From: Thermoplasmatales archaeon SW_10_69_26
Lineage (GTDB): Archaea > Thermoplasmatota > SW-10-69-26
NCBI GenBank assembly: GCA_003009755.1
Contig: PXUB01000037.1
Coordinates: 850 to 64,849 of the forward strand
Length of the DNA stretch: 64,000 nt
Direction: 5' to 3'
Each line of letters begins with the position of its first letter. The stretch's first letter is position 1. Under the pieces are notes generated by a model. That model searched no databases and was not told the origin of the DNA. It saw only the letters and a list, made by a program, of their open reading frames with translations. The translations under genes and the position numbers were made by a program. Positions 59,132-64,000 of the stretch are shown piece after piece.

Positions 59132-60187
59132 GTGGACGCAGCCCGCCTCGCCGAGCGGTTGACGGCCGAGCAGGACGCCCAGCACGCGTTGACGGCCGCC
59201 GCGGACGCGCTGAGGGAGGCCGGCCTCGCGGTCGACCGGGACGAGGAGCACCAAGCGATCGCTGCGGTTCGCGGCTCGCCCGGCGCCGTGCTCAGCGGCC
59301 ACGTCGACGTGGTGCCGGTCAGCGACGAGTGGAGCCGCCCCGCCTTCGGCAACGCGTTCGACGACGACCGGTTGTACGCCCGCGGGGCCAGCGACATGCG
59401 CGGCCCGGTGGCGGCGATGATCGCGGCCCTGGATCGCACCGAGGCACCCGTCGGCGTCGTGCTCACGACCGACGAGGAGACCACGATGGACACCGCGCGG
59501 GCCTACGCCGAGCACGACCGGTTCGCCGACGCCGACGTCGTGCTCGTCGGGGAACCGACCGGGATGGACGTCGCCGTCGCCGGCAACGGCCTGGTGTGGG
59601 TGCGCGTCGACGCCGACGGGGCTCGCGGGCACGCTTCCACGCCTCGACCCCAGGCCCGGGGGCCCTCGGCGCCCGAGCGCTTGATCGAGGCGCTGGCCGG
59701 CCTCGACCCGCGGCCCTTCCGCGTGGAGCATCCCCGCTTGGGGAAGGCGACCTTGGCGGTGTCCGGCATCGAGAGCGAGGCGACCCCGTTCAACGTGCTC
59801 GCCGGCGAGGCCGAGGCCCGCATCGATATCCGGTTCCCGCCGCCCAAGACGCCCGACGAGGTGGAGGCCTCGCTGCGCAGCCGGCTGGACCTCCCTCGGG
59901 AGGGGCTAAAGCTGTCCGTCGAGAAGCGGGAGCCGGCGTTCCTCGGCGACGAGGGCCAGGGCAAGCGAGCCGCGGATGCGTTGAGCCTGGCGGGCGTGGA
60001 TGCGTCCGTGACGGGCGTGGGCTACGTCACCGAAGCCGGCCACTGGCAACGCGTCACCGACACGCTCGTCGTCGGGCCGGGCTCGATCGATCGAGCCCAC
60101 GCGCCCGACGAGTACATCACGCGGGACGAGCTGACGACGGCCGTCGACGGGTACGCCGCCCTGATCGAGGCCTTCGCTCCCGTTTAG
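59132..60187 (+). CDS. M20-family metallopeptidase (ArgE/DapE-type deacylase)
   Basis: 351 aa, GTG start. Metal-ligand contexts LSGHVDVVP, ...RGASDMRGPVA..., TTDEET and a C-terminal HAPDEY. Confidence 0.8.
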   Translation: MDAARLAERLTAEQDAQHALTAAADALREAGLAVDRDEEHQAIAAVRGSPGAVLSGHVDVVPVSDEWSRPAFGNAFDDDRLYARGASDMRGPVAAMIAALDRTEAPVGVVLTTDEETTMDTARAYAEHDRFADADVVLVGEPTGMDVAVAGNGLVWVRVDADGARGHASTPRPQARGPSAPERLIEALAGLDPRPFRVEHPRLGKATLAVSGIESEATPFNVLAGEAEARIDIRFPPPKTPDEVEASLRSRLDLPREGLKLSVEKREPAFLGDEGQGKRAADALSLAGVDASVTGVGYVTEAGHWQRVTDTLVVGPGSIDRAHAPDEYITRDELTTAVDGYAALIEAFAPV

Positions 60188-60756
60188 ACTGCCGGTCTTG
60201 TTTTGCTTAGGCTCTCGCGCCGGTCTGGGGAGACCGGGGACGGTCTCCCGAGCCTGCGAGCCCGGAGGGCTCGTGCGAGGGAGCGTGGCACGGTCGCGGA
60301 GCCCGAGGAAACCAACCCTCGCGGGTTGTCGACGGACACTGCCCGGATCAGAGATCCGGGCGCGGCTAAGATCGCCCGGACGAGCGAGATCTCACGGGGG
60401 CCGACAACGGCCGAGCACCGGTCGGCGTGGCCGACCGGTCTCGGCTGCGCATCTTCGATTCGTAGAGCAAGGGGCCCGCCGCAGACCGGCGCACCAGAGC
60501 ATTTCCGGTCCCACGGTCTCCCCCTACGAGCGGTTGGCCAGGAAATGTTCACCAAATCGAGGGGGAGCGGTCTCCGTAACCCCCCTCACGGCGGGGCCGC
60601 CCGCAGGCGGCGACGACGCAAGGTCCCCACGTCCGCTTGCTGCAAGCGTTGTCGCCGTCGACCTCGACGTAGCCTCTGGCTACTCCTTCGTCTCGGCTCC
60701 GCGCTTTCACCGCCTGAGGCCGAGCGAGAGCCGAACCCAAGCATCGCCGGCAGTCT
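60185..60756. repeat. 572-bp non-coding element flanked by an 11-bp perfect inverted repeat (TAGACTGCCGG / CCGGCAGTCTA); MITE-like or structured-RNA candidate
   Basis: IR-L overlaps the peptidase TAG stop. Internal CGGTCTCC motif occurs 3x within the element and again at 60779. Two mutually exclusive perfect hairpins lie at 60222-60250 (ccggtct-gggg-agaccgg vs gggagaccg-ggga-cggtctccc). The ORFs across it are basic and low-complexity, i.e. not coding. Confidence 0.3.
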
Positions 60757-61111
60757 AGGCGCTCAACTGGGGACGTCGACGGTCTCCGCGAGCCGTCCGT
60801 CGGGTTCGTGCACCTTGATCGTGGTCGCCGACCCTCGCCGCGCCAGGTCCCGCGCTTCATCTAGGGCGGCGAACTTCGAGTCGTGGCGGCTCTCGGCCGT
60901 GGGAGCACCTTCACGGAGCACCTTCCATCGCCCCCCGTCGTCCTCGGCCACGTGCAGCGTGTCCGGGTCCACCCGCCATGCCATCTTCGGCTCCATGTCA
61001 ACCCTTGACAGTGCTTCGAAGGTGGATAAACCTACCGCCGCCGGGGGCTCGCGCGACGTGGAAAGGTTCGTGCGGACACCTTTCCCCGCCGGCGTCCTCC
61101 CCATCTCCCCG

Positions 61112-62032
61112 ATGGCGGGTCCCCGATTCCCCAACCTCTTCATCGCCGGCGTCCCGAAGGCAGCCACGACGACCTGGTACCAGGCCCTCGACCACCACCC
61201 CGACGTCTTCATGTCCCCACGCAAGGAGATGCGCTACCTCGACCGAGACCTCACCTTCGACAACCGTGTCGAGACCGAGGACGCCTACCTGGCCCACTTC
61301 GCGGACGCAGAGGGCCAGGCACGGATCGGCGAAGCTTCCCCGTGGTACTTCTACAGCGACGAGGCCCCCCGTTCGATCCGCGACAACGCCGAGGACCCCC
61401 GCGTCCTCGTGTTCCTGCGGGACCCGGTCGAGCGCCTGTACTCCCTGCACGGCCAGATGGTCAACTCTGGGGCCGAGACGATCGGGAGCTTCCGCGAGGC
61501 CCTGGCCGCCCAACCCGATCGCGAACGCGGCCGCCGGTTGCCGGACCTGCTCGAACCGCGCGAAGGCCTTCGCTACTGGGACATCGCCCACTATGGTCCT
61601 CACGTCCGCCGCTACCTCGACACCTTCGACGACGAGGAACTGATGTTCGTCCGGTTCGACGACTTCACGACGGACCCCGAGGGCGTCTTCCGCGAGGTCT
61701 GCACGTTCCTGGGCGTCGACCCGAACGTCCGCCCGGCCATCCCCGCCTCCAACACCCACCGCGTGCTCCGGAGCCACCGCGTGCGCGATTTCCTCGCCGA
61801 TCCGCCCGAACCCGTGCGAGAGATCGCCCACCGCGTCCCCGGAGACTGGCCGACCCAAGCCCGCGACATCCTGTGGCAGCTCAACCTCAAACCCGCCGAA
61901 CGCGACCCGATGCCGGAGGACCTTTGCCGGACGCTGACCGAACATTGCCGCCCCGACATCGAAGACGTCGAGGACCTGCTCGGCTGGGACCTGTCCGATT
62001 GGAGGCGCCGGGACCCCCTCGAGGAGGCCTGA
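61112..62032 (+). CDS. sulfotransferase-family protein
   Basis: 306 aa. PAPS 5'-phosphosulfate-binding loop FIAGVPKAATTTW. 3'-phosphate-binding region ...VLVFLRDPVERLYSLHGQ.... Acidic. Confidence 0.75.
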   Translation: MAGPRFPNLFIAGVPKAATTTWYQALDHHPDVFMSPRKEMRYLDRDLTFDNRVETEDAYLAHFADAEGQARIGEASPWYFYSDEAPRSIRDNAEDPRVLVFLRDPVERLYSLHGQMVNSGAETIGSFREALAAQPDRERGRRLPDLLEPREGLRYWDIAHYGPHVRRYLDTFDDEELMFVRFDDFTTDPEGVFREVCTFLGVDPNVRPAIPASNTHRVLRSHRVRDFLADPPEPVREIAHRVPGDWPTQARDILWQLNLKPAERDPMPEDLCRTLTEHCRPDIEDVEDLLGWDLSDWRRRDPLEEA

Positions 62033-62102
62033 AACCGGCAGGCTTACCAGACCGCGCACGCTCTTAGCCGCAAGCCCCCGCCGCGGGCCGCCTCACGCCG
62101 CC

Positions 62103-63056
62103 ATGCCCTCCCAGCCCCCGCCCGACCCCGACGACCGCTGGCCGAGTTTCTACCTCCTCGGCGCCGAGAAAGCCGGGACCACGTCCCTGTACCACTACCT
62201 CCGCCAACACCCCGACGTGTTCCTGCCCGAGGAGAAAGAGCCCGGGTTCTTCTCGCTGTACTGGGACATCGCCGTCGAACCCGCCAAGACGGTCGAACGC
62301 ACCTGGGGGTCCTTGGTCGACTTCGACCGCTTCGACGGGTTCGAGGACGCCCTCGCCGTCTACCGGTCCCTGTACCAGGGCGCCCCCGCCGACGCCGAAC
62401 GCGGCGACTGCACGGCCAGCTACCTCTGGCACCCCCGCACGCCCGAACGCATCGAGACGCTGACGCCCGAGGCTCGGTTCCTCGTCCTCGTGCGCGACCC
62501 CGTCGAGCGAGCCTTCAGCCACTACCTCATGGTCCGACGCGCCGGCGCCGAAGAGCGCGCGTTCCTCGACGCCCTCGAACGCGACCTCGAACGCGAGGGC
62601 ACCGAGGAAGCCCCGCACCGCTACCTCCTCAGCGGCCGCTACACGGAGCAGATCGAACGCTACACCGACCGCTTCGGGTCCGAGAACGTGCACGTCGTCT
62701 TCACCGAACGCATGGCCAAGTCCACCGACGCCGTGCTGCACGACGTGGCTCGGTTCCTCGGTCTCCCCACCCGACCGATCGATCGGATGGACACCGGGGA
62801 ACGTCACAACCCCTACCGCGAACCCGCCAACGCCCTCGCCGACTGGCTGCGCACCAACGACACGATCAAGAGCCTCGCCCAGGCGCTGCTCCCTAAGAGC
62901 GTGCGCGATGTGCTCGGCAACGAGGTCCTCATGCGAGCCGAGGACAGGCCGACGATGAGCGACGAGGCTCGCGCCTTCCTCGAGGACCACTACGCCGAGG
63001 AACCCGAGAGCCTCGAAGACCTGATCGGCAAGCGCCCACCCTGGTCGTGGGCCTGA
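62103..63056 (+). CDS. sulfotransferase-family protein (second, tandem paralogue)
   Basis: 317 aa. 5'-PSB loop YLLGAEKAGTTSLYHYL. 3'-PB region FLVLVRDPVERAFSHYL. Confidence 0.75.
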   Translation: MPSQPPPDPDDRWPSFYLLGAEKAGTTSLYHYLRQHPDVFLPEEKEPGFFSLYWDIAVEPAKTVERTWGSLVDFDRFDGFEDALAVYRSLYQGAPADAERGDCTASYLWHPRTPERIETLTPEARFLVLVRDPVERAFSHYLMVRRAGAEERAFLDALERDLEREGTEEAPHRYLLSGRYTEQIERYTDRFGSENVHVVFTERMAKSTDAVLHDVARFLGLPTRPIDRMDTGERHNPYREPANALADWLRTNDTIKSLAQALLPKSVRDVLGNEVLMRAEDRPTMSDEARAFLEDHYAEEPESLEDLIGKRPPWSWA

Positions 63057-63111
63057 GGTCCGCCGACGGGGAACGAAGGAACCATATGCGTCACGCCGGC
63101 ATGCTGGCCGC

Positions 63112-64000
63112 GTGCGCGTCGGCACGTTCCTGCGGACCTGGTTCCGAGGCGGCGGCGTCTCCCGGCACACGCTGGAGCTCGTCGAACGCCTCACCGACGT
63201 AGAATGGGTCTGCTTCGGTCACGGCTTCGAGACCGAGGTCCCCACCCCCATCGAGGTCGCCGGCGTGCCTGGTCCCCCCGCCGTCAAGGACGTCGCCAAC
63301 CTCGCCCGCTCGCCGTGGCTGATCGACCAGCTGCGCGAGGATCACGATCTCGACCTCTTCCACGCGCAGGACACGAACACGCTGGGCCACGACATCGTGA
63401 CCGTGCACAGCTGCTTCCCCGCCTACGCCCACGCCGAGCTCTCGCAGCTGTACACGCTCGTCCACCCGATGTACCACAAGAACTTGGTCAGCCAGAAGCT
63501 CGTGCTCGAGAACACCGACGGCCTGATCGTCGCCGTCAGCGAGGACCTCCGCGAGGACCTGCTGGACTTCTACGACCTCGACCCCACCCAGGTTCGCGTC
63601 GTCTACAACGGCGTCGACTTGGAGGCCTTCCACCCCGACGTCGACGGCTCCCCCATCCGGCGAGAGCACGGGATCGACCCCGAGACCCCGCTGTTGTCGT
63701 TCGTCGGCCACGAGTACGAGCGCAAGGGCTTCGACGACATCCTGCAAGCCCTTACCCGGCTCCCCGACGAGGTCGAGCTGCTCACCGTCGGCGGTGGCGA
63801 CCACGAGCCCTGGAAAGCCCGGGCGCGCGAGCTCGGCGTGGCCGACCGCGTCACCTGGGCCGGGTACGTGCCCGACGAGCAACTGCCCGCCCACTACGCG
63901 GCCTCGGACGTGTTCGTCTTCCCCACCCGCTACGAGTCCTTCGGCCTCGTCGTGCTCGAAGCCATGGCCACCGGCACCCCGACCGTCGCCGGCGACTTGG
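63112..64000 (+). CDS. GT4-family glycosyltransferase, 3'-truncated at window edge
   Basis: GTG at 63112 (VRVGTFLRTWFRGGGVSRHTLEL...). C-terminal part shows the GT4 EX7E context ...FVFPTRYESFGLVVLEAMATGTPTVAG.... The frame is open to the window end, so it is absent from the ORF track. Confidence 0.75.
   Translation, partial: MRVGTFLRTWFRGGGVSRHTLELVERLTDVEWVCFGHGFETEVPTPIEVAGVPGPPAVKDVANLARSPWLIDQLREDHDLDLFHAQDTNTLGHDIVTVHSCFPAYAHAELSQLYTLVHPMYHKNLVSQKLVLENTDGLIVAVSEDLREDLLDFYDLDPTQVRVVYNGVDLEAFHPDVDGSPIRREHGIDPETPLLSFVGHEYERKGFDDILQALTRLPDEVELLTVGGGDHEPWKARARELGVADRVTWAGYVPDEQLPAHYAASDVFVFPTRYESFGLVVLEAMATGTPTVAGDL

What the first reader, a model, noticed from the sequence alone, without database searches (positions are those of the whole stretch)
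60185..60756. Inverted-repeat-flanked 572-bp element with a repeated CGGTCTCC motif and competing hairpins, upstream of the sulfotransferase genes
An 11-bp perfect inverted repeat (TAGACTGCCGG ... CCGGCAGTCTA) bounds the segment. The left repeat coincides with the peptidase stop codon. Inside, CGGTCTCC recurs three times (60238, 60514, 60572) and once more just outside (60780). Two overlapping perfect stem-loops (7-bp and 9-bp stems) at 60222-60250 cannot form simultaneously, a riboswitch/attenuator-like arrangement. The element has no acidic ORF. It could be a MITE, or a cis-regulatory/structured RNA that controls the downstream surface-glycan genes.
Basis: seen in the sequence. Interest (0 to 1): 0.55.

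Follow-up and report, generated by a model that had tools for sequence, protein, structure and literature searches.

The report
Hairpin-rich MITE-like mobile repeat, archaeal
The 573-bp segment is one copy of a previously unnamed family of small, non-coding, inverted-repeat-ended mobile DNA repeats in salt-loving Thermoplasmata-type archaea; it is not a riboswitch for the glycan genes, and this copy marks a spot where closely related strains have different gene neighbours.

Summary
The inverted repeat, the CGGTCTCC motif cluster and the two mutually exclusive hairpins are real, with 1-4 nt coordinate slips. An 11-bp perfect IR is not rare on its own: 24% of 700-bp windows of this sequence have one.

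Comparative data decide the question. Two metagenome contigs 99% identical to the flanks lose homology exactly at the two IR termini, at 60186 and 60755. Related copies with the same termini (TA-GACTGCCGG...CCGGCAGTC-TA) lie at five other metagenome loci with unrelated flanks and are implied at three more by protein hits, two of them in one NCBI MAG ("Thermoplasmatales archaeon SW_10_69_26"). Four short-read contigs stop inside copies.

Copies measure 358-573 bp and have no coding signal. They share left and right modules but carry different sets of internal palindromes. Hairpins are kept by compensatory changes with no strand bias, so the constraint looks like DNA palindromes rather than one RNA.

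Both half-empty alleles carry TA (TTAA, CTAG) at the junction. This fits TA-target duplication of the IS630/Tc1-mariner type and explains why the IR supplies the peptidase's TAG stop. No cognate transposase was found.

The element lies at the 3' ends of two convergent genes, not upstream of the sulfotransferases.

Verdict: a new MITE-like family, a known kind of element, of modest interest.

The parts
59132..60187 (+). M20-family peptidase gene (context). Its TAG stop (60185-60187) is formed by the target TA plus the first base of the element.
   Evidence: Pfam Peptidase_M20 1.5e-25 and M20_dimer. GC3 0.93. The allele in L003 ends in TAA at the same place.
60185..60186 (.). Left flanking TA, inferred to be the duplicated target dinucleotide.
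   Evidence: The L003 allele without the element reads ...CGCTTA|ATCC, and its homology to the window ends at 60186.
60187..60195 (+). Left terminal inverted repeat core, GACTGCCGG.
   Evidence: The same sequence occurs in L056. L057 has GACGGCCGG with the matching change in its right TIR.
60185..60337 (.). Conserved left module: extended left arm, the CGGTCTCC/GGAGACCG triple with two exclusive hairpins (60220-60249), hairpin TGCGAGCCC-GGA-GGGCTCGTGCGA (60255-60278), and hairpin AACCC-TCGC-GGGTT.
   Evidence: 79% identical to L056 and 87% to L057. Alignment and consensus fold.
60327..60409 (.). Central module A, including the perfect hairpin GCCCGGATC-AGA-GATCCGGGC (60341-60361).
   Evidence: Collinear with L069, with compensatory changes in the hairpin. 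Absent from L056, L057 and L067.
60410..60593 (.). Central module B: long hairpin 60410-60445, hairpin 60497-60550, and hairpin 60557-60590, with CGGTCTCC at 60514 and 60568.
   Evidence: 89% identical to L067 4355-4544. The hairpin stem change GGC/GCC to TGC/GCA is compensatory. Absent from L057.
60595..60757 (.). Right module: hairpin 60606-60660, hairpin GTAGCC-TCT-GGCTAC (60668-60685), conserved block CTCGGCTCCGCGCTTTCACCGCCTGAGG, and the extended right arm.
   Evidence: Shared with L057 (77%), L068 (85%), L069 and L056 (last 73 nt, 90%). The block 60595-60723 is missing in L067.
60747..60755 (-). Right terminal inverted repeat core, CCGGCAGTC.
   Evidence: Conserved in L056, L067, L068 and L069.
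60756..60757 (.). Right flanking TA, inferred to be the duplicated target dinucleotide.
   Evidence: L002 without the element reads TGAGCGCCTAG|CAGG. Its homology to the window ends at 60755.
60763..60996 (-). DUF2188 gene (context), convergent with the peptidase. Its stop lies 6 nt from the right TIR.
   Evidence: Pfam DUF2188 6.4e-12.

Best explanation
Window 60185-60757 is one copy of a family of non-autonomous, non-coding mobile DNA repeats, a MITE-like element, found in a lineage of GC-rich, acid-proteome halophilic archaea. The only named relatives are labelled 'Thermoplasmatales archaeon'.

Shown:
- The element is bounded by the conserved termini GACTGCCGG...CCGGCAGTC, each abutted by TA.
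- It occurs in several unrelated genomic contexts and at least twice in one MAG.
- It is present or absent among 99%-identical strains, with breakpoints exactly at its ends.
- It has no coding signal.
- Its interior is a mosaic of palindromic hairpin modules that differ between copies. The hairpins are maintained by compensatory changes on both strands equally.

Inferred:
- It is moved in trans by a cut-and-paste DDE transposase that targets TA, preferentially within CTAG, and duplicates it, as IS630/Tc1-mariner elements do.
- In a 70% GC, gene-dense genome, tolerated TA sites are largely stop codons. An insertion into TAA or TAG recreates a TAG stop from TA plus the element's first G. That explains why the IR 'coincides' with the peptidase stop.
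- The copy in this window joins two regions that are not adjacent in related strains: the peptidase, normally followed by a convergent 274-aa gene and TatC, and the DUF2188-sulfotransferase block, elsewhere preceded by an FKBP gene. The copy most likely results from recombination between two copies, or from an element-mediated deletion or rearrangement.
- Any effect on neighbouring genes would be at their 3' ends (hairpins as transcript ends or stabilisers). It would not be riboswitch-like control of the sulfotransferases.
For: Breakpoints:
- L003 (99.1% identical) matches the window only up to 60186. It then carries a convergent 274-aa gene and TatC, an arrangement also present in the 76% relative L004.
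- L002 (98.8% identical) matches 61592 down to 60755 and then carries an FKBP gene.

Other copies:
- L056: full copy, 533 bp, TIR TAGACTGCCGGAC at both ends, unrelated flanks.
- L057: full copy, 358 bp, with TIR change T>G on the left matched by A>C on the right.
- L067: from the same ENA assembly as L001, which is 99.98% identical to the window. Its flanks are unrelated: polysaccharide genes and DUF4383.
- L068 and L069.
- Protein-level traces P0037 and P0040 on two contigs of the NCBI MAG SW_10_69_26, and P0043.

Repeat signature: contigs L001, L067, L068 and L069 all terminate inside copies.

Module map.

Non-coding.

Structure:
- z = -7.5 on the + strand and -5.7 on the - strand.
- 24 pairs changed on both sides, against 12.9 +/- 2.6 in shuffles (0 of 500 reach it) and 5-15 in slid controls.
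- GU-only versus AC-only substitutions are 26 versus 32, and the MFE is equal on both strands.

Target:
- TA is present at the junction in both element-free alleles (TTAA in L003, CTAG in L002; CTAG at the orthologous site in L004).
- C precedes TA at 6 of 9 ends.

Background: IS630-family elements, including archaeal ones, insert at TA with a 2-bp duplication, and IS630 prefers CTAG (PMC2170065 and the Tenzen & Ohtsubo 1991 paper cited there).
Against: - No autonomous element or transposase with these TIRs was found. Nothing turned up in the window.
- TIR and module pattern scans of the metagenome, GTDB-representative and viral collections returned only chance hits.
- Because TA and CTAG are palindromic, TA cannot be formally separated from the TIR within occupied sites.
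- No true empty site, with both flanks contiguous, was recovered for any copy.
- Only one copy lies in the 64-kb window.
- Copy number per genome is known only as at least 2.
- The compensatory maintenance of internal hairpins is more than a plain MITE needs and may point to an added function or a different mobilisation chemistry.
Confidence: 0.8

Rival explanations
1. It is a mobile or dispersed mosaic of palindromic units that spreads by some route other than a TIR-recognising DDE transposase. Comparable elements are bacterial REP/BIME, ERIC and BOX repeats, and the 'small mobile repeats' (SMRs) of Haloquadratum, which have ITRs but no cognate transposon. Spread might involve an unknown enzyme, a hairpin-binding HUH/tyrosine transposase, or recombination or gene conversion.
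For: - The interior is modular and differs between copies.
- Perfect palindromes are kept by compensatory changes on both strands.
- No cognate transposase was found.
- SMRs with ITRs and enigmatic mobilisation are documented in haloarchaea (PMC3119063).
- The location at 3' ends between convergent genes resembles BIMEs (my own background knowledge).
Against: - The termini are the best conserved part.
- The termini are abutted by TA in every copy.
- TA is present in both half-empty alleles, as expected for TA-duplicating transposition.
- REP/BIME-type repeats lack such TIRs.
Confidence: 0.12
2. It is a gene for a large structured non-coding RNA, or a structured 3'-UTR or terminator cassette. 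Its closing helix would be the inverted repeat, and it would be conserved for RNA function rather than mobility.
For: - The predicted fold is very stable (z = -7.5).
- Long-range pairing of the left and right modules, and the local hairpins, show compensatory changes.
Against: - No Rfam family matches, even at E <= 10.
- The signal is equal on both strands, with no G-U bias.
- No conserved promoter-like AT box is shared by the copies.
- Large parts of the 'RNA' are swapped or absent between copies (358-573 bp).
- Presence or absence between 99%-identical strains, unrelated flanks and assembly breaks all point to a repeat.
Confidence: 0.06
3. It is an ordinary single-copy intergenic spacer whose 11-bp IR and hairpins are chance features of GC-rich DNA.
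For: - IRs of 11 bp or more are common by chance: 24% of 700-bp windows here.
- There is no second copy in the window.
Against: - Homologous copies with the same termini lie in unrelated contexts.
- Breakpoints in related strains fall exactly at both termini.
- The fold z-score is -7.5.
Confidence: 0.02

Closest known systems
IS630/Tc1-mariner-derived MITEs (Stowaway-like, TA target duplication)
   Same: - Short, non-coding and bounded by TIRs.
- TA abuts both ends, and TA is present at the junction in element-free alleles.
- There is a CTAG context preference, like IS630 itself.
- It is multi-copy and polymorphic between strains.
   Different: - No cognate IS630-family transposase with matching TIRs was identified.
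- The element is long for a MITE (up to 573 bp).
- Its interior is a variable mosaic of perfect palindromes rather than a deletion derivative of an IS.
Correia repeat-enclosed elements of Neisseria
   Same: - TIR-bounded, with a TA duplication and no known cognate transposase.
- Sits next to genes and folds into hairpins when co-transcribed (my own background knowledge, not tested here).
   Different: - Correia elements are 100-155 bp, bacterial, and have 26-bp TIRs.
- There is no sequence relation.
Haloarchaeal transposase-free repeats (MITEs, PATEs, SMRs of Haloquadratum walsbyi; PMC3119063)
   Same: - Archaeal halophile setting.
- Transposase-free repeats that account for much strain-to-strain difference.
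- SMRs have ITRs without a matching transposon.
   Different: - The host lineage is different (Thermoplasmata-type, not Halobacteria).
- There is no sequence similarity, although these elements were not compared directly.
- TA at the junctions argues for target duplication, which SMRs lack.
- PATEs lack TIRs.
Bacterial mosaic palindromic repeats (BIME/REP, ERIC, pneumococcal BOX)
   Same: - Modular combinations of palindromic units.
- Located at 3' ends or between convergent genes.
- Highly stable hairpins.
   Different: - Those families lack conserved TIRs with TA flanks.
- They are bacterial.
- REPs are moved by RAYT tyrosine/HUH transposases.

Membership tests
MITE (miniature inverted-repeat transposable element) | Terminal inverted repeats conserved among copies | tested here: met
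   (TA)GACTGCCGG / CCGGCAGTC(TA) occurs in the window, L056, L067, L068 and L069. L057 carries a matched change in both TIRs.
MITE (miniature inverted-repeat transposable element) | Too short to encode a transposase, and non-coding | tested here: met
   Copies are 358-573 bp. There is no GC3 periodicity. ORF translations are Arg-rich and have no Pfam hit.
MITE (miniature inverted-repeat transposable element) | Multiple dispersed copies in unrelated contexts and insertion polymorphism | tested here: met
   - At least 8 loci were found.
- Two loci are in the MAG SW_10_69_26.
- L067 comes from the same assembly as the window strain's contig L001.
- Breakpoints at both ends appear in 99%-identical contigs.
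- Per-genome copy number was not measured.
MITE (miniature inverted-repeat transposable element) | Target-site duplication | tested here: inconclusive
   TA abuts every intact end and is present in both half-empty alleles (L002 CTAG, L003 TTAA). However, TA is palindromic, and no empty site with both flanks contiguous was recovered.
MITE (miniature inverted-repeat transposable element) | TIRs match those of an autonomous transposon that supplies the transposase | not testable with these tools
   - No transposase was found in the window (partial scan).
- Collection scans with TIR patterns gave only chance hits.
- ISfinder was not available.
IS630/Tc1-mariner-mobilised element | Insertion at TA with a 2-bp duplication, and a CTAG preference for IS630 | tested here: inconclusive
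   The data are consistent with this: CTAG at the L002 site and at the orthologous L004 site, and C before TA at 6 of 9 ends. Background from PMC2170065. Not proven.
Riboswitch / transcription attenuator | Located in the 5' leader of the regulated gene, on its strand | tested here: not met
   The element lies between the 3' ends of convergent genes. The sulfotransferase start (~61113) is separated from it by the minus-strand DUF2188 gene.
Riboswitch / transcription attenuator | Match to a known RNA family, or strand-specific covariation | tested here: not met
   Rfam gave 0 hits at the gathering threshold. The best hit at E <= 10 was 17 bits (HgcF, gathering score 70). Substitutions are strand-symmetric.
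REP/BIME-like palindromic repeats | Short palindromic units without TIRs, associated with a RAYT transposase | tested here: not met
   Conserved TIRs are present at both ends of every full copy. RAYT association could not be tested.

The most novel reading that the evidence does not exclude
The family is more than a passive MITE. It would be an archaeal counterpart of bacterial BIME, ERIC and Correia elements. In this reading, a transposable cassette carries interchangeable palindromic modules that are kept under selection, as the compensatory changes suggest. Because it inserts at stop codons, it would supply bidirectional transcript-end, insulator or stability hairpins to convergent genes, and it would also act as a recombination substrate that reshuffles cell-surface glycosylation islands.
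Probability: 0.18. Interest if true: 0.55.

Novelty: new member of a known kind. Interest (0 to 1): 0.33.

Why it matters
This names and delimits a repeat family in an uncultured halophilic archaeal lineage, which has three practical consequences.
- It explains spurious 'hypothetical proteins' and gene-fusion calls in public MAGs. Examples are PSG96387.1 and PSG98101.1, whose C-termini are translated repeat.
- It explains why short-read assemblies of these genomes break at these sites.
- It marks a junction where the surface-glycan (sulfotransferase) block is attached to different neighbours in different strains, which is relevant to how cell-surface islands are reshuffled.

It also removes a false lead: there is no riboswitch controlling the glycan genes here. 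This is useful but not surprising, because MITE-like repeats are well known in archaea.

Tried and rejected
- **Rfam and ARAGORN.** Rfam at gathering and at E <= 10, and ARAGORN, found no known RNA. The 17-bit HgcF hit is chance.
- **Second copy in the window.** BLASTN of the element against the window and nhmmer profiles of the left and right modules against the window and all loci found none.
- **Plasmids and phages.** Distant-mode blastn gave no match.
- **Metagenome contigs.** The TIR-arm pattern gave 51 hits, all chance. The collection does not even hold the source locus, so this is a weak negative.
- **Viral contigs.** Four pattern scans found no real copies.
- **What worked.** Searching protein databases with translations of the spurious ORFs on both strands found other copies.
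- **Coding hypothesis rejected.** There is no GC3 periodicity, the translation is basic in an acidic proteome, and there is no Pfam hit.
- **'The TIR's TAG is always the neighbour's natural stop codon' rejected as a general rule.**
  - It holds for the window (peptidase) and for L056, where the in-frame upstream ORF has 100% GC3.
  - It does not hold for L057, L068, L069 or the window's right end.
  - In L067 the TAG closes a frameshifted, truncated DUF4383 gene.
- **Strand assignment failed.** G-U versus A-C counts showed no asymmetry.
- **Literature.** Searches for the TIR sequence and for the MAG name found nothing relevant.
- **Transposase in the window.** Pfam on 10 further window ORFs found none. 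This scan was not exhaustive.
Full report
**1. What is in the sequence**

- The perfect inverted repeat TAGACTGCCGG / CCGGCAGTCTA lies at 60185-60195 and 60747-60757. It extends to 34-nt arms that are 79% complementary.
- The first three bases of the left repeat are the TAG stop of an M20-family peptidase gene, 59132-60187 on the + strand.
- Six bases beyond the right repeat a minus-strand DUF2188 gene ends (60763-60996).
- The 573-bp segment therefore fills the whole spacer between two convergent genes.
- The first sulfotransferase starts only at about 61113, beyond the DUF2188 gene. The segment is not in a 5' leader of the glycan genes.
- CGGTCTCC occurs at 60241, 60514, 60568 and 60780, and inverted at 60229. 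Four inside 573 bp gives P of about 1.6e-5.
- The two mutually exclusive hairpins are present. One pairs 60220-60226 with 60231-60237 (7 bp). The other pairs 60228-60236 with 60241-60249 (9 bp).
- Codon-position GC shows no periodicity inside the segment, against GC3 above 0.9 in the peptidase. The long ORFs are Arg-rich and have no Pfam hit.
- Rfam and ARAGORN find nothing.
- The segment folds far better than shuffles on both strands: z = -7.5 and -5.7.
- An 11-bp perfect IR is not evidence by itself. 43 of 181 real 700-bp windows of this sequence, and 31 of 300 shuffles, have one.

**2. Comparative evidence**

Exact-protein look-ups of the flanking genes returned metagenome contigs from nearly identical strains.

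- L003 is 99.1% identical. It matches the window only up to 60186 and then continues with a convergent 274-aa gene whose stop overlaps the peptidase stop (TTAA), followed by TatC. A 76%-identical relative, L004, has the same adjacency with CTAG at the junction. That adjacency is therefore ancestral.
- L002 is 98.8% identical. It matches 61592 down to 60755 and then continues with an FKBP-type isomerase gene, reading TGAGCGCCTAG|CAGG at the junction.
- Both IR termini are thus homology breakpoints.
- L001 is 99.98% identical. It confirms the left junction, but the contig stops 66 nt into the segment.

**3. Other copies**

DNA pattern scans of the large collections gave only chance hits. Searching protein databases with the translations of the spurious ORFs found relatives instead.

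| Locus | What it holds |
|---|---|
| L056 | Complete 533-bp copy with TAGACTGCCGGAC at both ends and unrelated flanks |
| L057 | Complete 358-bp copy with termini GACGGCCGG / CCGGCCGTC, a matched change at both ends |
| L067 | Same ENA assembly as L001; a copy abuts a DUF4383 gene next to polysaccharide-synthesis genes absent from the window; the contig ends inside the copy |
| L068, L069 | Both contigs begin inside copies |
| P0037, P0040 | 'Hypothetical proteins' on two different contigs of the NCBI MAG 'Thermoplasmatales archaeon SW_10_69_26', with C-termini that are translated repeat |
| P0043 | Another variant |

The module map is:

- Left module 60185-60336: shared with L056 (79%) and L057 (87%).
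- Module 60410-60593: shared with L067 (89%).
- Right module 60595-60757: shared with L057 (77%), L068 (85%), L069, and L056 for its last 73 nt (90%).
- L067 lacks 60594-60723.
- L057 lacks 60337-60594.

The family therefore has constant ends and an interchangeable set of internal palindromes.

**4. Structure**

- On the six-copy alignment, the window's MFE structure is kept in 82% of cells, against 39-45% when partners are slid.
- 24 pairs show a change on both sides, against 12.9 +/- 2.6 in shuffles (0 of 500 reach it) and 5-15 in slid controls.
- Examples of compensatory change:
  - GCCCGGATC/GATCCGGGC becomes GCCCGAA/TTCGGGC in L069.
  - ACCGGTCGGC/GCCGACCGGT becomes ACCGGTCTGC/GCAGACCGGT in L067.
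  - GTAGCC/GGCTAC becomes a GCCC/GGGC hairpin in L057.
- The left and right modules also pair with each other, for example CGCGGAGCCCGAG with CTCGGCTCCGCG.
- The signal has no strand. Substitutions compatible only with + strand RNA (G-U) number 26. Those compatible only with the - strand number 32. The MFE is -318.1 against -318.3 kcal/mol.
- This points to DNA-level palindromes rather than one functional RNA. Possible causes are protein binding, hairpin extrusion, or mutational homogenisation of quasi-palindromes.
- The structure was derived from one of the aligned sequences, which inflates the paired-cell percentage. The both-sides-changed counts are the more reliable measure.

**5. Target and mechanism (inference)**

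- Every intact end is abutted by TA.
- Both element-free alleles carry TA exactly at the junction: TTA|A in L003 and CTA|G in L002.
- C precedes TA at 6 of 9 ends, which suggests a CTAG context.
- IS630-family elements occur in bacteria and archaea. They insert at TA with a 2-bp duplication, and IS630 prefers CTAG (PMC2170065 and the Tenzen & Ohtsubo 1991 reference cited in it).
The L003 allele has TAA where the window has TAG.
- The stop-codon rule is not general.
  - It holds for the window's left end and for L056, where the upstream in-frame ORF has 100% GC3.
  - It does not hold for L057, L068, L069 or the window's right end.
  - In L067 the TAG closes a frameshifted DUF4383 gene truncated at profile position 93 of 125.
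- No cognate transposase was found, so the IS630-type assignment remains a hypothesis. I put it at roughly even odds. The broader claim of a non-autonomous mobile repeat I put at about 0.8.

**6. This copy**

- Its two flanks are not neighbours in related strains. A simple insertion does not explain the locus.
- The most economical account has two steps. Copies were inserted at the peptidase stop and at the CTAG downstream of DUF2188. Recombination between the copies, or an element-mediated deletion or inversion, then left one copy at the new junction.
- This puts the sulfotransferase block next to a core ABC-transporter/peptidase region. This account is inferred, not shown.

**7. Comparison with known kinds, and verdict**

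- The element meets the MITE criteria that could be tested: TIRs, non-coding, dispersed and polymorphic.
- The target duplication is consistent but not proven. The cognate transposon is untested.
- It resembles Stowaway/IS630-type MITEs and Neisseria Correia elements in its TA flanks.
- It resembles BIME, ERIC and BOX repeats in its modular palindromes and its 3'-end location.
- It resembles the MITE and SMR classes described in Haloquadratum (PMC3119063) in its halophile setting.
- It fails the tests for a riboswitch or attenuator: wrong position, no Rfam family, and no strand bias.
- Verdict: a new family of a known kind of element. It is of modest interest. It is useful for annotating and assembling these genomes and for understanding how the glycan island is reshuffled.

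Noticed in passing
window 60185-64000 versus L002, L003, L004: There is a strain-specific synteny break.
- In a 99% strain and in a 76% relative, the peptidase is followed by a convergent 274-aa secreted or anchored protein gene, with overlapping stops, and then TatC.
- In a 98.8% strain, the DUF2188-sulfotransferase block is preceded by an FKBP-type isomerase gene.
- The window joins the peptidase to DUF2188 through the repeat.
   Followed up: partly
L001 (ends at window 60253), L067 4324-4544, L068 1-273, L069 1-433: Four short-read metagenome contigs terminate inside copies of the repeat. This is the usual signature of a multi-copy sequence breaking de Bruijn assemblies.
   Followed up: yes
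L067 4001-4326; NCBI PSG98101.1 (P0040): The DUF4383 gene next to a repeat copy is frameshifted and truncated at profile position 93 of 125.
- The frame-corrected tail ...LGFGAVYGLVTALGFLGVS ends on the repeat's TAG.
- The public annotations instead fuse the gene to translated repeat sequence.
- The same structure appears in an independent NCBI MAG.
   Followed up: partly
NCBI PSG96387.1 (P0037), ENA/JGI P0038, P0039, P0043-P0045: Several database 'hypothetical proteins' are wholly or partly translations of this repeat. They are Arg-rich and end in ...VSAPRFHRLRPSES.TQA.PAV. These are annotation artefacts.
   Followed up: yes
window 60902-60925: An exact 11-nt direct repeat, GGAGCACCTTC, occurs twice, 13 nt apart, inside the DUF2188 coding region.
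   Followed up: no
window 60196-60208: A T-rich run (TCTTGTTTTGCTT) lies immediately after the peptidase stop, inside the left arm, in a 70% GC genome. It could act as an archaeal oligo-T termination signal. It is not conserved in L056 and only partly in L057.
   Followed up: partly
L056 634-650: A TTTATA box lies just outside the right end of the L056 copy. That copy appears to sit between a gene's stop and the next gene's promoter.
   Followed up: no
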